From NCBI RefSeq assembly GCF_044647545.1, contig NZ_CP172818.1: a stretch of DNA of 64,000 bases; one strand, 5' to 3'. Each line of letters begins with the position of its first letter. The stretch's first letter is position 1. This document shows positions 539 through 32,180 of this stretch, one piece after another. The notes beneath the pieces were generated by a model. The model searched no databases, was not told the origin of the DNA, and saw only the letters and a program-made list of their open reading frames with translations. Position numbers and translations under genes: made by a program. The stretch is from Escherichia coli. GTDB taxonomy: Bacteria; Pseudomonadota; Gammaproteobacteria; Enterobacterales; Enterobacteriaceae.

Positions 539-867
539 AACTGCATAAAAAAATAGAGTCTGTCGACATCCGCCAGACTCTACAGTACACACAGCAGTGC
601 ATCCGCGTCTTAAATCCGGCATGGTCTCCTCTGCGCCGGTGACTGTGTTATAACGGTTTTAACCTTTAGTTGCCAATTTTCTTCAGTGACAGATTTCACG
701 AAAATATAAGTTACATTATTAATATCGTGAATGAATAATCATGCATAAGCATTTTGCTTAAAATATCGGCAACATTTGGAACTTATTACTGGAAATTTGG
801 GTAATACGTTGTTGGACCAGCCCGGTCTGGTTATCATATCGCGCTCTTAATTGCGGGAGGATGTAAC

Positions 868-3922: not shown

Positions 3923-4111
3923 CAAAAGCAATTTCTCCGGGATTCTGTATACAAAAACGCCGTAAAGTTTGAGCGAAGTCAATAAACTCCCTACCTATTC
4001 AGGGCAATATCTCTCTCGCAGGTGAATGCAACGTCAAGCGATGGGCGTTGCGCTCCATATTGTCTTACTTCCTTTTTTGAATTACTGCATAGCACAATTG
4101 ATTCGTACGAC

Positions 4112-4139
4112 GCCGACTTTGATGAGTCGGCTTTTTTTT
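4112..4139 (+). terminator. Rho-independent terminator-like hairpin with T-run
   Basis: gccgactttgatgagtcggc followed by tttttttt. Confidence 0.5.
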
Positions 4140-8414: not shown

Positions 8415-8624
8415 TTAATTTGAATACAATGCAATTCTCGAGGACTGAAGTTTCTCGCAATTAAAATTTATCAGTTTTACTTTCTGCTCTCTGGAAACGC
8501 CTGCTTCTTTTTTACCTGAGAGCATTTTTTCGCATTCTGATTTCGTTAGTTTAGATTTTGAATATCTTGTCCAGTTAGTAGGAGTGCCACCTTCCTTTTC
8601 AATAGTGGCGGTAATTTTATACAT
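8415..8624 (-). CDS. ydaC: Rac prophage small protein YdaC
   Basis: ORF 8415..8696; likely start at internal ATG (MYKITATIEKEGG). Confidence 0.65.
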   Translation of the reverse strand: MYKITATIEKEGGTPTNWTRYSKSKLTKSECEKMLSGKKEAGVSREQKVKLINFNCEKLQSSRIALYSN

Positions 8625-8867: not shown

Positions 8868-9677
8868 TTATTCCTCTGAATTATCGATTACACTGTATTC
8901 CCCGGTTAATACAGAGGAATCTGCAGGATCGATTGTCAGTGGTTCCTTTTCATCCATTGATACTGCACGCTGGATCTCAATTGATACGGGCAAATATTTG
9001 AACAGGCGACGAATAGCCGTTTTCTTTGCCATTTCTTCCCAGTGAGTTACCCACGGCCCGTTATTACCAGCTTTACTCAGGCTGCGCACCAGCTCAATCT
9101 GTTTGCGCGTCATAACTTCAAACTGAGTACCTCCGTCTTTCAGTCTTGCGACAGCATAGACGTGGGTAACCGGGGCATCTTCGTTTTCTCCCGGGCGGTG
9201 TATTAACTTTTCATCAAGGCCAAATTCGAAGCTAAACTCGTCACCTTCACGGACAACACGGGCTGACAGGCTGGCGATTTGACCAGAACGGCGAGCCAGA
9301 TCAATCATGCCGCGATAGCCAATGATTAGCTGAACGTTCTTTTTACCGCTCTTTTCGTTTTTATTACCAAAAGGCAGTAAATATGCATGACCGAGGGCGC
9401 TACCTGGCTCAAGTCCGAGCTGTGAACACTGTACGATCGCACTGACAAAACTCATAGTGTCACAGTTTCCTAACGCCGGAACTTTACGAATTTCTGTGGT
9501 GGCGATACGGATCATACGTTCAGCCGTCATATGGCGTGGAAGAGCTGCTGCCAGTTGCTCTTTCATTGATGGCTGGTTAATAAAACTAATCACGTCGCTA
9601 TTTTTAACTGCTGCTGGTGCACGGTTTCCCTGAGTTTTTTGCAGATCGGCTTTTGCGATTGGTGGTTGCTTAGTCAT
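8868..9677 (-). CDS. recT: Recombinase RecT (single-strand annealing protein)
   Basis: ORF 8868..9734; recalled RecT N-terminus [12 protein letters not shown] at internal ATG. Confidence 0.9.
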
Positions 9678-12312
9678 TTGCATATTCCTTAGCCCAGCGG
9701 GGCAGTGATAATGTCTTAATAGCTGGCCATTCATCGGTATTCAGGCAGTCAGACAGGGTTCGCAGATTGCGGTGATATTCCTGTTGACCTGCCAGTTTTG
9801 CTTCTTCGCCCATCATGAAAATTTCAACCGGATAACGTCCGCATTCAATAGTTGTGCTGGCAACCAGAAAAACGAAAGTTGGCTGCACTCCAAACTGTGC
9901 TTCATAACCGTCACTGTAGAATGCATCCTGAACGTGATAGCGGTAGTCGTAATAAGCGGTTTTGAATCGTTGAATATCCGCCGTAGTTTTCACGTCCATG
10001 ATCCAGTGAAATTCAGGGATAATTTTGTCCGGACGGCACCGACACAAAATTCCTGTTTCAGGATCTTCCCAGTAAATTGATGATTCAGCGTGTCCGGCGC
10101 TTTCAACAAGCCATTGCCCCAGCGGCAAAGCCATAACGCTTTGATACATGAGTTCAATTTTCCGGCCTTCTTCCGCAGTGATAACCGTTTTTCCTGTGCT
10201 TGCGCATTCCATCAGAAACGCTTTCTCTTCTTCTTTTCCGGCGTTTGTACGGCGGTTAAATTCAGGTGCTACGATAAAGCGGTTACTGAATTCTTCCGGT
10301 TCAAGTACCCGGCAGTGGAAAGCAGTTCCTAAATCGAGCGTTTTTGTCTTTGTGGTGTCCACGGGGGCATTTTTACGCCACAAATATAGTGCCGGAGTAT
10401 CAGCAATGTCATCGAGCTGAGACTTACTGATACCGGGACCCGCGTGGTAATTCTCATTCGAAATTCCGTAATAAATACCTGGCTCTATGTCTTCTACGAT
10501 TAAGGGATCTGACGCCTCGCCAGTTTCACTATCGCTGGCATGATGCTGATTGCTGCCAGTGTTCTCCTTGTGCTGATGCGCAGTGCCTTCCATTTCCTCC
10601 AGATCATTTTTCTGAACTTCAGGCTGATTCTCTCCATCGAATATTTCCTGGTATGTTGCGTCACCCATCACCGCACCACAATCAGGGCAGTTGCCGCCAC
10701 CGCTCTGACCGCAGGCGGTGCAGATCTTTTCCGGTTCCTGTTGCACTACTGGTTCAGGTTGTTTCGTTTCTGGCTCGTTTTGTTGCGTATTTGGGCTGTT
10801 TTGTTCCGCTTTCTGGTCGTTCTGTTCCGTTTCTTGCTGGTTCTGGTTCACAGAATCGCGGGTCTGGATCCCCTTAATCCATTTCGGATCATTCGGGTCG
10901 CTAATCCCTTCAACAAATTCACCACGTGATACTGCAAGCAGTTCATCGTCATCGACAGGATTTTTTGATGGAATGTTTTTCCGGGCTTCATGGAGTTCTG
11001 CCCGCAGTTCCTGATATTTCGCATCAACAGAATTTACCTGTGACTGAGCATCCAGCGGCTGCGTGTCCTGATGATGTTCAGTTGCGTCCGGTTCCATTGT
11101 TTCAGCCTCTCCCTGTTCAACTGCCGTTGTTCCAGATGGTTGCGGTTTTTCTTCATCATCCTGTTTTCCTTCTTCTGTTACTCGCTGCGGCATCGGGGCA
11201 GAGGAGCGACCGCAGGCAATATCCACGATTTCCGGATCAGGGTTGGCATGATCGGTTTCAGTCAGTACTTTGTTCAGATATTCAGTGACGTGCGCGGGGA
11301 TGACCTCGATCCCAATTGGTGCTTCTTTTACGGACGCAACCACGATGGCGCGGGAATAATCCAGCCCGCCAGGCATGGTGATGAATTTGTCGCGGAAAAC
11401 AGAAAAGGGCGGTTTATTTTCAGCGATAATTTCCTCAATGCGTTTAGCGTGTGCCGGATGAAGGTTATAGATGTCCAGATCCATTGAACGGGCCAGTACG
11501 CCAGTGGCTACGTCGCGCGCCAGTGACGTCAGATCGTGTACGAAACCTTCGCCGCGATCGGTGAGGTTTCCGCCGCCAGCATTAGCACCGGAAGCCGTGC
11601 GAGTGATGTGTGAAACACGATTACCCTTCATCCACTCTTTTGTCAGCAGTCCTCGATCGGTGTAGTCAGCGTTCAGGTATGCTTCGAAAAAAGCAGTTAT
11701 CAGTCCCAGGTTTGAATTACCAGGATTAGGGAAAACTTTGTCAGTGTCACGAACCAGTTTGTGGAGTTCGCGAATTTCCAGCGGGTCGAGCAGGCTGGTT
11801 TTGTGGGAAACAGCCAGGGCAGTAACAGCCGGTAGTTCTTCAGCCCGAGCAATGTGTAATGCCTGGAGTCCGTCGCGTGAAACGTGCGTTACCGGTTTTT
11901 CGCTGCCGTGTTGAGCAAGCCAACGAATGGGCAGTTCCTGGCCAGAAATTGGGAGTAGCATATTCTCCTCAATCTCAGTCATGTCTTCGCCGTTGACGTT
12001 GGTATTGCCTTGATAGTGAGCGTTGTCTGGTGCTGCTCCCGGTTTTAGTTCCCATGTCATGGAGTCTTTGCTGAGTTGATAGCGTTCACTCCAGGTAAAA
12101 TCGATCTCACCTTCAGCGGGCAGGTCATTAACGACAGGAAAATTCGTGGCAACAGCTTTAAAATAGCTGCTCAGTTTTTTACCTGACTTAACGATCAGGT
12201 AGTCCAGAGTGGCACAGGTCGATTCAAAATCGTTGCTTGCCCACAGGACGACGTCAGGTTCACCGGATGATTTTTTCGCTTTCCGTAACAGGAAGAGTGG
12301 TTTTGTGCTCAT
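9670..12312 (-). CDS. recE: Exonuclease VIII RecE
   Basis: 880-aa ORF ending ...[11 protein letters not shown]; low-complexity acidic/Gln-rich middle region; overlaps recT start. Confidence 0.9.
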
Positions 12313-12413
12313 TGTTTTTTAACCTCAACTCAGATTAAAATTCGTTTTGTTCAGTGAATGATCTTGCCGGATACACACTGTTCATAGCCTGCGCCATACG
12401 CAGGCTATTTCTT

Positions 12414-12689
12414 TCAGATTTCACCTTTTAATTTCATTGCAATTAGAGTTGCCAGAAATTCGGCTTTTTTTTCTGCGGGCAGATTCTTTCCGATATGCAC
12501 CAGGCACATTTTTTTGACACCTTCATCAAGTGTTTTTACGTTGCCTGATGGACCATCGATATCAACCACAGTGAATGGGGTTTCTTTATTTTCTGTTTTA
12601 ATTACGTAGCCAATGCGCTTTCCTTCCAGATTCACCTCGTGAACAATGTCATCGGTAGTTACAACAGTGGCTTCATAATTGGTAATCAT
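12414..12689 (-). CDS. racC: Rac prophage protein RacC
   Basis: 91-aa product (MITNYEATVV...) within ORF 12414..12737. Confidence 0.8.
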   Translation of the reverse strand: MITNYEATVVTTDDIVHEVNLEGKRIGYVIKTENKETPFTVVDIDGPSGNVKTLDEGVKKMCLVHIGKNLPAEKKAEFLATLIAMKLKGEI

Positions 12690-12763: not shown

Positions 12764-12934
12764 TTAAAGTTCATGTGCCATCTGGTCTTTTTCGGCACAA
12801 GCTTCACTGCAATATTTTCTCGGTTCGTCTTTTGATAAAATCCCGTGCATGAAGTGAAGCATTCTTTCAATAGCTTTGCTTTCTTCAACGTCTTTTTTGC
12901 AAAGGTGGTAAGCACATTTTATTTTCTTAGTCAT
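12764..12934 (-). CDS. ydaE: Small Cys-rich zinc-ribbon-like protein (56 aa)
   Basis: Hand translation [56 protein letters not shown]; start overlaps kilR stop (TGATGA); not in ORF track (<60 aa). Confidence 0.7.
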   Translation of the reverse strand: MTKKIKCAYHLCKKDVEESKAIERMLHFMHGILSKDEPRKYCSEACAEKDQMAHEL

Positions 12935-13155
12935 CACCATGACTCCGCCTTTACAGGTAAACCATCACGACCGAGGAAGACTTTAATCATGCGGTCAGTA
13001 ATGAATGTTTTTGTGGTCAGGTTACGAATATATAGTTTTCGCTTTTTAATATTGTTTGCCGAGGCAATATATGTCCGGCCTTCATGAAGAACATAATCGC
13101 CAGGAGTCACACACTGACGTGGTATTTCATCAGTTCCGAAGTGATGTGCAATCAT
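12934..13155 (-). CDS. kilR: Cell division inhibitor KilR (FtsZ inhibitor)
   Basis: 73-aa product ([14 protein letters not shown]...) within ORF 12934..13167. Confidence 0.85.
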
Positions 13156-14382: not shown

Positions 14383-14572
14383 CTTATCTCTCCCCTTAAC
14401 GCCGGGTGGCGGAACTAACTGCTGCACTGCAAAATTTGAATCCCGCCGTCATGTTCATACGCCTCGGGCTGGCTACTTAACCCCTTACCACTGCCTGGTA
14501 ACTCGAAGTATTGCCCGGCGTTCTGTGGGGCGGGGTGGGTGGTATGCTGGAACTATAGGTAATGCCTAATTG

Positions 14573-14596
14573 ATTGTCAATAGGCTATGCCTAATG
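14573..14596. promoter_or_regulatory. Operator-like 24-bp element distal to racR, inverted copy of 15219..15242
   Basis: attgtcaataggctatgcctaatg; 23/24 identical to reverse complement of 15219..15242; surrounded by extra GCCTAAT motifs. Confidence 0.4.
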
Positions 14597-27340: not shown

Positions 27341-27915
27341 TGGCATTCAGAATGAGTGAACAATCACGTACCGTAAAAATTTATAACCTGCTGGCCGGAA
27401 CTAATGAGTTTATTGGTGAAGGTGACGCATATATTCCACCTCATACAGGGCTGCCAGCTAATTCTACAGATATCGCCCCACCGGAAATTCCTGCTGGCTT
27501 TGTGGCAGTTTTTAACAGTGAAAATGAATCGTGGAATATTGTTGAAGACCATCGTGGTAAAACGGTCTATGACGTGGCGTCGGGGGACGCATTGTTTATT
27601 TCTGAACTCGGACCGCTACCAGAGAATGTCACCTGGTTGTCGCCAGCAGGGGAGTATCAGAAGTGGGACGGCGTATCCTGGGTGAATGATGAGGAAGCAG
27701 AAAAACTGTTTCGGATACGGGAAGCGGAAGAAAGAAAAAGCAACCTGATGCAGGTAGCCAGTGAGCATATTGCGCCGCTTCAGGATGCTGCAGATCTGGA
27801 AATTGCAACGGAGGAAGAAACCCCGTTGCTGGAAGCATGGAAAAAGTATCGGGTATTGCTGAACCGTGTTGATACGTCAACTGCACAGGATATTGAATGG
27901 CCAGCACTGCCGTAG
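27340..27915 (+). CDS. tfaR: Tail fiber assembly protein
   Basis: 191-aa ORF start-overlapping stfR stop; Tfa-like. Confidence 0.85.
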
Positions 27916-31820: not shown

Positions 31821-32047
31821 TGAATAAATCCTTTAGTTATTTTATTTGCCTTTTATCCCCATTTCGGGGAGTGAAAACATCCTAAAGGAGAAGTTCAGTT
31901 AGCCGATAAATATCATTTGTTACGCCTTAAGTAAAACCTTAATCAAATAATTCTACGGAAATGATAATAAGTTTGGTGAATATATTGTTGGCGACATATA
32001 CAAAATAAAAATTATACATTTAAATAGTGATGCGTTATTCTTCGCGG

Positions 32048-32152
32048 GTTATATGCCTTTATTGTCACAAAGATTATTTTCTGTTGGACCCTTGTTACTG
32101 TTTATCCAACAAATAATGAGACAAGCCCGAACAGTCGTCCGGGCTTTTTTTT
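32048..32152 (+). ncRNA. micC: MicC-like small regulatory RNA
   Basis: 5' gttatatgcctttattgtcaca matches recalled MicC seed; ends in hairpin cccgaacagtcgtccggg + T-run (32125..32150). Confidence 0.7.
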
Positions 32153-32180
32153 AGAATTGGATAATCCTTATCCAGAGCAT

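What the first reader, a model, noticed from the sequence alone, without database searches (positions are those of the whole stretch)
12764..13155. kilR and a missed 56-codon Cys4 ORF (ydaE) coupled through TGATGA overlap
The ORF track lists only kilR. Immediately downstream on the same strand, a 56-codon frame starts inside the kilR stop context and encodes two CxxC-like pairs (CAYHLC ... CSEAC) typical of a zinc ribbon. Tight translational coupling suggests co-expression with the FtsZ inhibitor.
Basis: seen in the sequence. Interest (0 to 1): 0.3.

Follow-up and report, generated by a model that had tools for sequence, protein, structure and literature searches.

The report
Known Rac prophage kilR–ydaE gene pair
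The "missed" reading frame is ydaE, an already annotated small zinc-finger gene of the E. coli Rac prophage that overlaps the end of the cell-division inhibitor gene kilR, so the finding is correct but not new, and what YdaE does is still unknown.

Summary
kilR lies at 12934..13155 (minus strand, 73 aa). A 56-codon frame at 12764..12934 (minus strand) starts inside TGATGA, so kilR's TGA stop and the ATG share one base. The frame has no internal stop and four cysteines: C7/C12 (CX4C) and C42/C46 (CX3C).

It is not new. This stretch is 100% identical to E. coli K-12 Rac, where RefSeq annotates kilR and ydaE. EcoCyc calls YdaE a zinc-binding protein, citing Blindauer 2002.

What I added:
- ORF length alone is not significant. 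Coding status rests on purifying selection and a 275-cluster enterobacterial family.
- The predicted fold is a treble-clef finger, like eL24, FCS fingers, YacG and the SmtA finger. It is not a zinc ribbon, and not an Rtr1 phosphatase or a metallothionein.
- In 40 species-level loci, YdaE always precedes a RecE-type gene. The upstream gene varies: Kil/KilR, DUF1482 or a 38–51-aa ORF.
- Atlantibacter and Phytobacter prophages encode one conserved Kil–YdaE fusion protein.
- A metagenomic 180–230-aa family ends in the same finger.

YdaE's function remains inferred. Novelty: already known. Interest: low.

The parts
12934..13155 (-). kilR coding sequence, 73 aa. It encodes an inhibitor of FtsZ and MreB. 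The predicted structure is a small beta-barrel followed by a disordered C-terminal tail, and the tail is the active region.
12764..12934 (-). ydaE coding sequence as annotated in RefSeq, 56 aa. It is a single-zinc Cys4 finger protein.
   Evidence: NCBIfam NF041288 scores 86 bits against a cut-off of 35. It matches phrog_1520. AF2 gives pLDDT 89.5. Purifying selection is shown.
12931..12940 (-). Junction sequence ATGGTGATGA. It holds three in-frame candidate ydaE starts (ATG 12940, GTG 12937, ATG 12934) interleaved with the last kilR codons and the stop (TGG TGA, stop at 12936..12934).
   Evidence: Across eight Rac-type alleles, only the ATG at 12940 is kept in all. GTG becomes GTA in L098 and L103, and the ATG at 12934 becomes ATA in the Stx1c phage.
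12943..12952 (-). Shine-Dalgarno-like AAAGGCGGAG inside the kilR codons for ...KAE. GGAG lies 5 nt before GTG 12937 and 8 nt before ATG 12934. AAGG lies 7 nt before ATG 12940.
   Evidence: Duplex energies with the 16S rRNA tail are -6 to -7 kcal/mol. The site is weakened in allele L100 (AAAAGCGGAA).
12929..12944 (-). Predicted RNA hairpin AGUCAU-GGUG-AUGACU that pairs the two ATGs with each other. In the same fold, the Shine-Dalgarno-like site pairs with ydaE codons 10-13.
   Evidence: minimum free energy -31.3 kcal/mol for 120 nt, z = -2.57, with 5 of 200 shuffles folding as well. There is no covariation support: the consensus energy is only -8 kcal/mol. This is low-weight evidence.
12899..12916 (-). 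First zinc knuckle, codons C7..C12 (TGT GCT TAC CAC CTT TGC, encoding CAYHLC).
   Evidence: It aligns to SmtA Cys9 and Cys14.
12797..12811 (-). Second Cys pair, C42..C46 (CSEAC). It sits at the end of a strand and the first turn of the C-terminal helix.
   Evidence: It aligns to SmtA Cys32 and Cys36 (YCSEACA is identical in both).
12767..12787 (-). Codons 50-56, DQMAHEL. DQMAHE is the near-invariant C-terminal end of the family and is always the last residues of the protein.
   Evidence: All 72 long-form metagenomic relatives also end in ...DQMAHEG-type termini.
12791..12900 (-). Divergent allelic patch in the middle of ydaE. DNA identity to other Rac-type prophages is only 53-73% here, while kilR and racC on either side are 97-100% identical.
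   Evidence: There are two main allele classes...ERMLHFMHGILSKDEPR... and ...KRPLHFMRGVIPTTEMK.... pN/pS is 0.5-0.8 with pS about 0.4. This fits an old mosaic allele rather than recent positive selection.
12414..12689 (-). racC, 91 aa, function unknown. It is the next gene in the operon.
   Evidence: NF007306.
9670..12312 (-). recE (exonuclease VIII). A RecE-type gene is the conserved downstream neighbour of the YdaE family.

Best explanation
**Shown.** This is the kilR-ydaE pair of the early-left operon of an E. coli Rac prophage. The operon order is ydaG-ydaF-kilR-ydaE-racC-recE-recT. It is repressed by RacR and silenced by Rho/NusG. ydaE is a real, already annotated gene. Its 56-58-aa product folds around one structural Zn(Cys4) site formed by C7, C12, C42 and C46. 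The predicted fold is a treble-clef finger: a knuckle, a beta-hairpin and a C-terminal helix. Its closest sequence relative with a solved structure is the zinc-finger site of the cyanobacterial metallothionein SmtA. Its closest fold relatives are eL24, FCS/TRASH fingers and YacG.

**Inferred, likely.** The ydaE start region lies inside the last codons of kilR and has only a modest, partly sequestered Shine-Dalgarno-like site. Ribosomes finishing kilR would therefore re-initiate on ydaE, so the two proteins are made together.

**Inferred, about 0.3-0.35.** YdaE is not a metal store. It is a small protein-binding module of phage early operons. Its invariant C-terminal helix (YCSxxCAxxDQMAHE, always the extreme C-terminus) would be the contact surface for a conserved target. 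It is delivered together with a Kil-type host inhibitor. In Atlantibacter and Phytobacter prophages it is part of a single Kil-YdaE polypeptide. KilR does not need it in order to kill.
For: **Identity and annotation.**
- The 1.2-kb stretch is 100% identical to K-12, with kilR and ydaE annotated.
- Both pass their NCBIfam cut-offs.

**Zinc binding.** YdaE is listed as a zinc-binding protein in EcoCyc and in Blindauer 2002, as cited by PMC6892955, PMC7012810 and PMC5821084.

**Co-expression.** kilR and ydaE are co-induced on loss of RacR.

**Real coding gene.**
- pN/pS is 0.1-0.2 at the knuckle and the helix.
- The family has 275 clusters.

**Fold.**
- AF2 pLDDT is 89.5, with the second Cys pair at a strand end and the helix N-terminus.
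- The only PDB sequence hit is SmtA 1jjd_A, aligning all four Cys and SKAI.R/YCSEACA.
- hhalign probabilities are 68% to SmtA and 82% to YacG.

**Coupling.**
- The stop/start overlap T(G/A)ATG is kept in all eight Rac-type alleles.
- The K-12 junction RNA is predicted to sequester the Shine-Dalgarno-like site and the starts, z = -2.6.
- In 38 species-level loci the upstream gene overlaps ydaE, is fused to it, or ends within 11 nt of it.

**Link to Kil.**
- A single in-frame Kil-YdaE ORF of 124 aa occurs in L123, L124, L131, L132 and L139.
- Five protein clusters with 305 member sequences carry both PF27398 and PF27493.
- The frame is kept at pS about 0.7, with pN/pS 0.14 for the Kil part and 0.44 for the YdaE part.
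- One cluster has no internal Met at the linker.
- Separate fusions join the 38-aa upstream ORF to YdaE.

**Early-gene module.** 72 of 145 new 50%-identity representatives are proteins of 136-230 aa (mostly 180-215) that end in the same finger. They lie in arrays of small same-strand ORFs.
Against: - No experiment shows what YdaE binds.
- KilR alone is fully toxic from a plasmid, and plasmid kilR complements a kilR deletion (PMC12482147, PMC5793797).
- The upstream partner is one of three unrelated families: Kil/KilR 15 loci, DUF1482 13, 'MIDFARKPAR' ORF 10. This argues against a specific Kil-YdaE contact.
- AF2 of the natural fusion gives two well-folded domains on a low-confidence linker (pTM 0.51, pLDDT below 50 at residues 71-73). 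No packing between the domains is predicted.
- A RecE-type gene lies downstream in 36 of 36 loci with enough sequence, which fits a recombination role equally well.
- RNA covariation gives no support for the sequestering fold.
- The details of the 2002 zinc-binding experiments could not be read here.
Confidence: 0.85

Rival explanations
1. YdaE is an accessory factor of the RecE/RecT recombination module. For example, it could bind the non-nuclease N-terminal or middle region of RecE, or protect linear DNA ends as an anti-nuclease. On this view its position next to kilR is incidental.
For: - A RecE-type ORF follows YdaE within about 300-700 nt in 36 of 36 species-level loci that have enough sequence. 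Sometimes a RacC-like gene lies in between.
- The same order is seen in Rac-SA53, an Stx1c phage, HK225, Gifsy-1, Klebsiella phages and PHB10.
- In Kosakonia the downstream 746-790-aa protein carries YdfE_N and YdfE_C domains and has no Exonuc_VIII or DUF3799 match. It still shares residues 199-395 with RecE residues of about 227-421.
- The mosaic joint lies upstream of ydaE, not downstream.
Against: - Gene order in lambdoid early operons is often kept by descent without any functional link.
- No YdaE-RecE fusion was seen among the hits listed.
- The long-form relatives sit in small-ORF arrays with no RecE in view.
- The YdaE C-terminus is invariant while the RecE proteins are only 25-40% identical. 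That fits a conserved host target better.
- By my recollection of the recombineering literature, not checked here, truncated RecE plus RecT works without ydaE.
Confidence: 0.2
2. YdaE is a built-in attenuator or antidote of KilR. It would be made in fixed ratio by coupling and would temper or time the division block, in the manner of a toxin-antitoxin pair.
For: - The stop/start overlap is tight.
- The KilR C-terminal tail is its active region and acts in a length-dependent way. That tail is exactly where YdaE is attached in the natural fusions.
- ydaE transposon insertions change fitness under several chemical stresses (PMC5064937).
- A TraDIS study flagged ydaE as insertion-poor.
Against: - The Keio ydaE deletion is viable and was used in screens.
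- Chromosomal kilR causes arrest under OxyS or peroxide even though ydaE is intact and co-transcribed.
- Most family members sit behind genes unrelated to Kil.
- A fused toxin-antidote kept under purifying selection would be unusual.
Confidence: 0.1
3. YdaE is a zinc-homeostasis protein, either a mini-metallothionein or a zinc chaperone.
For: - There is weak similarity to Pfam Metallothio_Pro: 20.6 bits, E = 5e-4.
- The only PDB sequence hit is SmtA.
- It is listed as a putative zinc chaperone in PMC6892955.
Against: - The Pfam score is below the cut-off of 33 bits.
- Only the four finger cysteines are kept. The cluster ligands of SmtA are missing.
- The gene sits in a repressed prophage early operon.
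- Its presence did not track zinc tolerance in 179 pig isolates: 42.9%, 16.2% and 52.8% across the three MIC classes.
- One structural site cannot buffer zinc.
Confidence: 0.04
4. YdaE is a nucleic-acid-binding finger, GATA-like or eL24-like. It would regulate transcription or translation of the early operon or of host genes.
For: - The best fold matches are RNA-binding ribosomal proteins eL24 and eS26.
- The SmtA finger is described as GATA-like.
- One source names a homologue 'predicted nucleic acid-binding'.
Against: - By my count from the sequence, the protein is roughly charge-neutral, with about 11 Lys/Arg against 10 Asp/Glu.
- The conserved surface is an acidic/His C-terminal helix (DQMAHE), not a basic patch.
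Confidence: 0.1
5. The frame is a chance ORF and not a gene.
For: ORF length alone is not significant: P is about 0.046, and shuffles give about 2 such ORFs per 1.3 kb.
Against: - It passes the NCBIfam cut-off.
- It belongs to a family of 275 clusters.
- The frame is under purifying selection.
- The AF2 model is confident.
- Published work reports zinc binding by the protein.
Confidence: 0.01

Closest known systems
YdaE family (NCBIfam NF041288, Pfam PF27493, PHROG 1520); E. coli K-12 ydaE (WP_001352098.1)
   Same: The sequence is identical to the K-12 protein. It has the same operon position after kilR and before racC and recE, the same four cysteines and the same DQMAHE end.
   Different: Nothing differs. 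This is the family's type member. Only the rest of the window departs from MG1655; for example, RecE is 880 aa rather than 866.
Zinc-finger site A of the bacterial metallothionein SmtA/BmtA (PDB 1JJD, Pfam PF02069)
   Same: It shares the CX4C...YCSEACA ligand pattern and the SKAI(D/E)R strand. The four cysteines align to SmtA Cys9, Cys14, Cys32 and Cys36.
   Different: YdaE has a 12-residue longer hairpin. It lacks the extra Cys and His ligands of the Zn4 cluster. It scores below the Pfam cut-off, 20.6 against 33 bits. It is a prophage early gene, not a zinc-regulated gene.
YacG, the Cys4 zinc-finger inhibitor of DNA gyrase (PDB 4TMA chain I)
   Different: There is no Pfam YacG match at E ≤ 1. 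YdaE has a longer hairpin. It ends in DQMAHE rather than YacG's longer C-terminal tail, which (from memory, not checked here) is what contacts GyrB. No evidence links YdaE to gyrase.
TRASH / FCS (MYM) / eL24 treble-clef zinc fingers
   Different: The spacer between the Cys pairs is 29 residues, against 19-22 in the TRASH motif as I recall it. K-12 YdaE has no Pfam hit to these families.
Rtr1/RPAP2 zinc-finger domain (Pfam PF04181)
   Same: This is the best Pfam hit, E = 2.3e-6, covering profile positions 20-69 of 75. Some RefSeq homologues are named after it.
   Different: It is below the gathering cut-off, 28.2 against 33 bits. Only the finger is shared. The name 'phosphatase' for 56-aa proteins is an over-annotation.
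Overlapping stop/start (translationally coupled) gene pairs in phage early operons
   Same: The two genes are on the same strand, share 1 to 7 nt between stop and start, and the downstream gene has a weak ribosome-binding site of its own.
   Different: Dependence of ydaE translation on kilR translation has not been tested. Other family members use separate strong Shine-Dalgarno sites with gaps of 3-33 nt.

Membership tests
YdaE family (NF041288 / PF27493) | Score above the curated NCBIfam cut-off of 35 bits | tested here: met
   86.1 bits, E = 1.2e-24, covering residues 5-56 against profile positions 1-50 of 50.
YdaE family (NF041288 / PF27493) | Four conserved cysteines and the C-terminal YCSxxCAxxDQMAHE motif at the end of the protein | tested here: met
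   Alignments A1 and A2.
YdaE family (NF041288 / PF27493) | Position in a lambdoid prophage early-left operon, upstream of a RecE-type gene | tested here: met
   for K-12. 36 of 36 species-level loci. Phage loci.
KilR (NF008465 / PF27398 / phrog_294) | Full-length HMM match above the cut-off of 92 bits | tested here: met
   159.1 bits, residues 1-73 against profile 1-73. phrog_294 E = 7.5e-35.
KilR (NF008465 / PF27398 / phrog_294) | Inhibition of FtsZ and MreB, and toxicity that depends on the C-terminal tail | not testable with these tools
   Taken from the literature: PMC12482147 and PMC5793797. The sequence here is identical to the protein that was tested.
Bacterial metallothionein BmtA/SmtA (PF02069) | Pfam gathering score of 33 bits | tested here: not met
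   20.6 bits, E = 5.2e-4.
Bacterial metallothionein BmtA/SmtA (PF02069) | Additional Cys and His ligands that form a multi-zinc cluster | tested here: not met
   Only the four finger cysteines align, and the SmtA C-terminal ligand-rich tail has no counterpart.
Bacterial metallothionein BmtA/SmtA (PF02069) | Zinc-finger site A (CX4C...CX3C) | tested here: met
   The alignment to 1jjd_A places C7, C12, C42 and C46 on SmtA C9, C14, C32 and C36. The E-value of 0.24 is not significant on its own.
Rtr1/RPAP2 (PF04181) | Pfam gathering score of 33 bits | tested here: not met
   28.2 bits.
YacG (DUF329, PF03884) | Sequence-family match | tested here: not met
YacG (DUF329, PF03884) | Binding and inhibition of GyrB | not testable with these tools
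   No complex prediction or interaction assay was available here.
Translationally coupled gene pair | Stop and start overlap on the same strand | tested here: met
   TGATG at 12936..12932. T(G/A)ATG or an upstream ATG/GTG is kept in eight alleles.
Translationally coupled gene pair | Downstream translation depends on upstream translation | not testable with these tools
   The only indication is a predicted RNA fold that sequesters the site (z = -2.57). It has no covariation support.

The most novel reading that the evidence does not exclude
The YdaE finger, with its invariant free C-terminus ...DQMAHE, could be a portable effector or targeting module of phage early proteins.

- In enterobacterial Rac- and Gifsy-like prophages it is made together with whichever small host-directed protein sits upstream (Kil/KilR, DUF1482 or a 38-51-aa ORF).
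- In Atlantibacter and Phytobacter prophages it is a single Kil-YdaE polypeptide, attached to the very tail that makes KilR active.
- In uncultured phages it caps an uncharacterised N-terminal domain of about 140 aa.

If so, YdaE would act on the same host machinery as Kil (division or elongation) or would tune it. Published phenotypes of kilR::cat deletions may then partly reflect polar loss of ydaE.
Probability: 0.3. Interest if true: 0.45.

Novelty: already known. Interest (0 to 1): 0.15.

Why it matters
As submitted, the finding matters little. It rediscovers an annotated K-12 gene whose zinc binding was reported in 2002. It mainly shows that a 60-aa ORF threshold hides real small genes.

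Some value remains:
- YdaE is one of the many K-12 prophage proteins with a known cofactor but no known role. It sits next to KilR, which contributes to survival after oxidative stress.
- The conserved Kil–YdaE fusion, the always-terminal DQMAHE motif and the large metagenomic long-form family give concrete, cheap experiments to find its partner.
- There is a practical caveat for KilR work. The last kilR codons carry the ydaE start region, so kilR deletions or C-terminal edits in the chromosome may also alter ydaE expression.

Tried and rejected
1. **Viral-contig scan.** The 80 loci kept were nearly all 98-100% identical Rac copies. They were useless for diversity, and the junction was invariant. 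I replaced this with a DNA-pattern scan of species-level genomes.
3. **Profile search of PDB sequences.** Nothing was significant.
4. **Positive selection on the divergent central patch of ydaE.** Rejected. pN/pS is 0.5-0.8 and pS is already about 0.4, so this is an old allelic mosaic.
5. **AF2 of the natural Kil-YdaE fusion to look for domain packing.** pTM was 0.51 with a low-confidence linker, so there is no evidence for a fixed complex. The tool returns no PAE, so paired-chain tests were not possible.
6. **RNA covariation at the junction.** The alleles are too similar, and one sequence (L121) was given with wrong coordinates. This was uninformative.
7. **PADLOC defence models.** No hits for YdaE, KilR or RacC.
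8. **Pfam scan of the alternative upstream proteins and RacC-like proteins.** Only DUF1482 was recognised.
9. **The Blindauer 2002 paper.** It is not held, and papers that cite it give no detail. The specifics of the zinc experiments rest on secondary citation and on my memory.
10. **Literature search for ribosome-profiling or proteomic detection of YdaE.** Nothing was found.
11. **Search for the long-form family in cultured phages.** Only the stand-alone finger of lambdoid phages was found.
12. **My first assumption that the window is MG1655.** Rejected. Outside the kilR-ydaE stretch it differs: 99.8% and 97.7% identity, and RecE carries a 14-aa insertion.
Full report
**1. The observation**

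Reading the minus strand shows kilR from ATG 13155 to TGA 12936..12934. A second frame starts at ATG 12934..12932 and ends at TAA 12766..12764. It has 56 codons and no internal stop. It encodes [56 protein letters not shown].

The hexamer TGATGA (12936..12931) holds the kilR stop and the ydaE start, which share one base. Two further in-frame starts lie just upstream: GTG at 12937 and ATG at 12940. The mechanical ORF is therefore 58 aa.

The four cysteines are C7/C12 (CX4C) and C42/C46 (CX3C).

ORF length by itself is not evidence. The chance of staying open for 56 codons at this composition is about 0.046, and shuffled sequence gives about two such ORFs per 1.3 kb.

**2. What it is**

The 1.2 kb around the finding is 100% identical to E. 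coli K-12 strains. In those strains RefSeq annotates racC, ydaE ('YdaE family protein'), kilR and sieB at exactly these positions. 4416 of 5426 complete E. coli genomes carry related sequence.

- YdaE scores 86 bits against NCBIfam NF041288 (cut-off 35).
- KilR scores 159 bits against NF008465 (cut-off 92).
- In PHROGs they fall in phrog_1520 (unknown function) and phrog_294 (Kil).

The window as a whole is not MG1655. Over 9 kb it is 99.8% and 97.7% identical, and its RecE is 880 aa with a 14-aa insertion. It is therefore a Rac prophage of another E. coli strain that carries the K-12 allele of kilR-ydaE.

**3. What is already published**

- PMC6892955 cites Blindauer et al. [quoted passage not shown] I recall that paper reporting a single Cys4-bound zinc, but I could not read it here.
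- kilR and ydaE are induced together, 40- to 70-fold, when RacR repression is lost (PMC6765115, PMC11014345).
- KilR inhibits FtsZ and MreB. Its 12-residue disordered C-terminal tail is the active region, and the identity of the last three residues does not matter (PMC12482147).
- kilR is silenced by NusG/Rho and is released by OxyS (PMC5793797).
- ydaE mutants show phenotypes in T6SS-susceptibility and chemical-stress transposon screens, without any mechanism.

**4. Evidence that the frame is a real gene**

The family has 275 clusters at 90% identity, and all those with a source name are from Enterobacteriaceae. In a 67-sequence alignment, C12 and C46 are invariant and C7 and C42 are kept in at least 90% of sequences. 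The last 16 residues, YCSxxCAxxDQMAHE, are almost invariant.

Between Rac-type alleles, pN/pS is 0.1-0.2 in the knuckle and the C-terminal helix. It is 0.3-0.8 in the central hairpin, at pS 0.4-0.9.

**5. Fold**

AF2 on the family alignment gives pLDDT 89.5. The model has strands at 4-6, 15-17, 22-30 and 33-41 and a helix at 44-55. The second Cys pair spans the end of a strand and the first helical turn. That is treble-clef geometry, not a zinc ribbon.

- Foldseek gave nothing significant.
- The only PDB sequence hit of the K-12 protein is SmtA (1jjd_A). It aligns all four cysteines plus SKAI.R and YCSEACA, though E = 0.24.
- Pairwise hhalign gives 68% probability to SmtA and 82% to YacG.
- Pfam hits to Rtr1/RPAP2 (28.2 bits) and Metallothio_Pro (20.6 bits) are below their 33-bit cut-offs.

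YdaE is therefore neither an Rtr1 phosphatase nor a metallothionein.

**6. The junction**

Eight Rac-type alleles all keep a stop/start overlap, but not the same start.
- L098 and L103 have TAATG, so GTG becomes GTA.
- The Stx1c phage has ATA in place of the K-12 ATG.
- Only the upstream ATG (window 12940) is present in all eight.

The SD-like AAAGGCGGAG (12952..12943) is modest and is weakened in L100.

The K-12 junction RNA is predicted to pair the two ATGs in a 6-bp hairpin and to pair the SD with ydaE codons 10-13 (dG -31.3 kcal/mol, z = -2.57). The alleles are too similar for covariation to test this fold.

Coupling by termination-reinitiation is therefore plausible but inferred. A practical point follows. 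The KilR codons for ...KAESW double as the ydaE initiation region. Edits to the kilR 3' end may therefore change ydaE expression.

**7. Context across species**

A DNA-pattern scan of one genome per species gave 43 loci, of which 40 are true YdaE genes.

*Downstream.* A RecE-type ORF follows in 36 of 36 loci that have enough sequence. Some have a RacC-like gene in between.

*Upstream.* The neighbour is one of three unrelated small genes: Kil/KilR (15 loci), DUF1482 (13) or a 38-51-aa 'MIDFARKPAR' ORF (10). The junctions are always tight:
- overlaps of -1 to -8 nt;
- gaps of 3-11 nt with an SD that overlaps the upstream stop;
- or a full fusion of the two genes.

The same order is seen in Rac-SA53, an Stx1c phage, HK225, Gifsy-1, Klebsiella prophages and PHB10, and in Erwinia, Franconibacter, Leclercia and Kosakonia contigs.

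**8. Fusions**

In Atlantibacter (L123, L124, L131, L132) and Phytobacter (L139), the Kil homologue and YdaE form one 124-aa ORF.
- The protein database holds five such clusters, with 305 member sequences and identity down to 69%. Each carries both PF27398 and PF27493.
- Between the two genera the frame is kept at pS about 0.7. pN/pS is 0.14 for the Kil part, about 0.5 for the linker and 0.44 for the YdaE part.
- One cluster lacks the internal Met at the linker, so there the finger can only be made as a fusion.
- AF2 of the fusion gives two well-folded domains: a small beta-barrel at residues 8-59 and the finger at 77-124. They are joined by a low-confidence linker, with pTM 0.51. No fixed packing is predicted.

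Separately, the 38-aa upstream ORF is fused to YdaE in several clusters and in phrog_6751.

**9. A wider family**

An exhaustive profile search found 172 representatives at 50% identity. Of the 145 new ones, 72 are 136-230 aa long (mostly 180-215). These have an unrecognised N-terminal domain of about 140 aa, and the YdaE finger forms their extreme C-terminus (...DQMAHEG). That domain has no Pfam or PHROG match in the six I scanned.

Three contexts that I looked at are arrays of small same-strand ORFs of 36-47% GC, typical of phage early regions. No cultured phage in the collection carries the long form.

**10. How it most likely works**

*Shown.* The gene identities, the overlap, the conservation and the confident finger model were established here. 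The zinc site and the co-induction come from the literature cited above.

*Inferred.* YdaE is translated by ribosomes that finish kilR. It acts as a small protein-binding module through its invariant C-terminal helix, and it is delivered together with a Kil-type inhibitor.

I put about 0.3-0.35 on that functional reading. The alternatives, with my estimates, are:
- a RecE/RecT accessory, 0.2;
- a nucleic-acid-binding regulator, 0.1;
- a KilR attenuator, 0.1;
- a zinc-homeostasis role, 0.04.

KilR's self-sufficient toxicity and the three unrelated upstream partners argue against a specific KilR-YdaE complex. The stable fusion argues that the two functions are at least compatible and act at the same time.

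**11. Verdict**

The finding is accurate but already known. I rate interest as low. The only possibly new angles are the conserved Kil-YdaE fusion, the always-terminal DQMAHE motif and the long-form metagenomic family. All three are leads, not results.

Noticed in passing
window 12791..12900 (-): There is a roughly 110-nt patch in the middle of ydaE that is only 53-73% identical to other Rac-type prophages. kilR and racC on either side are 97-100% identical. There are two main allele classes (HGILSKDEPR and RGVIPTTEMK). pN/pS is below 1 and pS is high, so this looks like an old mosaic allele with recombination joints inside the gene.
   Followed up: yes
L123:9-452, L124, L131, L132 (Atlantibacter); L139:5569-5994 (Phytobacter); P0121-P0125: The Kil homologue and YdaE are fused into one 124-aa ORF. 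The fusion is kept under purifying selection across two genera. It is annotated only as 'YdaE family protein'.
   Followed up: yes
L005:2383-2499 (Gifsy-1 STM2630.1n) and 10 species-level loci, e.g. L113, L125, L140: An unannotated-function 38-51-aa ORF (MIDFARKPAR...RRLCYLLAQKG) always overlaps the ydaE-like start by 8 nt (ATGnnTAA). It is fused in frame to YdaE in several protein clusters (P0009, P0012, P0040, P0070; phrog_6751).
   Followed up: partly
P0143-P0267 (72 representatives); loci L147, L148, L149: A metagenomic family of proteins of 136-230 aa (mostly 180-215) has an unrecognised N-terminal domain (M[RK]TN[KL]EKY...KPTRxDVE...) and a YdaE-type finger as the extreme C-terminus. The genes lie in arrays of small same-strand ORFs. 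The family is absent from cultured phage genomes.
   Followed up: partly
window 9670..12312 (-), insertion at about 10795..10836: recE here is an 880-aa ORF, against 866 aa in MG1655. It carries a 14-aa insertion ([14 protein letters not shown]) and about 40 substitutions in residues 456-603. The window is therefore not MG1655, even though kilR-ydaE is identical to K-12.
   Followed up: partly
L110 (MAG 'Proteobacteria bacterium OH_SBlB_131'), L117 (MAG 'Candidatus Nanosynbacter sp.'): Two metagenome-assembled genomes of unrelated taxa carry kilR-ydaE-racC at 99-100% identity to E. coli Rac. This is most likely contamination of the bins by E. coli contigs.
   Followed up: no
L003:2253-2492 (phiSTEC1589-Stx1c); L006:2992-3147; L008:1707-1859; names: Several annotations are misleading. 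A KilR homologue is labelled 'cell division protein FtsZ'. YdaE homologues are labelled 'DNA breaking-rejoining protein', 'Rtr1/RPAP2 family protein phosphatase' or 'YacG/DUF329 gyrase inhibitor'. A small ORF at the ydaF position in L008 is labelled 'head-DNA stabilization protein D'.
   Followed up: partly
window 14552..14580 (-): A near-consensus sigma-70 promoter-like site (TTGACA-17-TATAGT, 11 of 12 matches) lies between racR and ydaG and points toward ydaG-ydaF-kilR-ydaE. It is a candidate early-left promoter.
   Followed up: no
window 8440..8618 (+), 4018..4135 (+), 545..640 (-), 32045..32160 (+), 27683..27881 (+): Rfam matches above gathering score: RalA antitoxin sRNA, FnrS, McaS, MicC and IS009. 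All are expected for this part of the E. coli chromosome.
   Followed up: no
window 12384..12408 (+): A 10-bp GC-rich hairpin followed by a T-rich run lies on the plus strand between recE and racC. It is antisense to the operon, and its role is unknown.
   Followed up: no
L092/L093:4577-6949 (Kosakonia); window 11050..11634: A 746-790-aa protein with YdfE_N and YdfE_C domains follows ydaE in Kosakonia. It shares a domain of about 200 aa (39.5% identity) with the non-nuclease N-terminal part of RecE.
   Followed up: partly
P0082 (220 member sequences): A common E. coli YdaE allele has Trp in place of the first zinc ligand (MTKKIKWAYHLC). It may be a decayed copy in a cryptic prophage.
   Followed up: no
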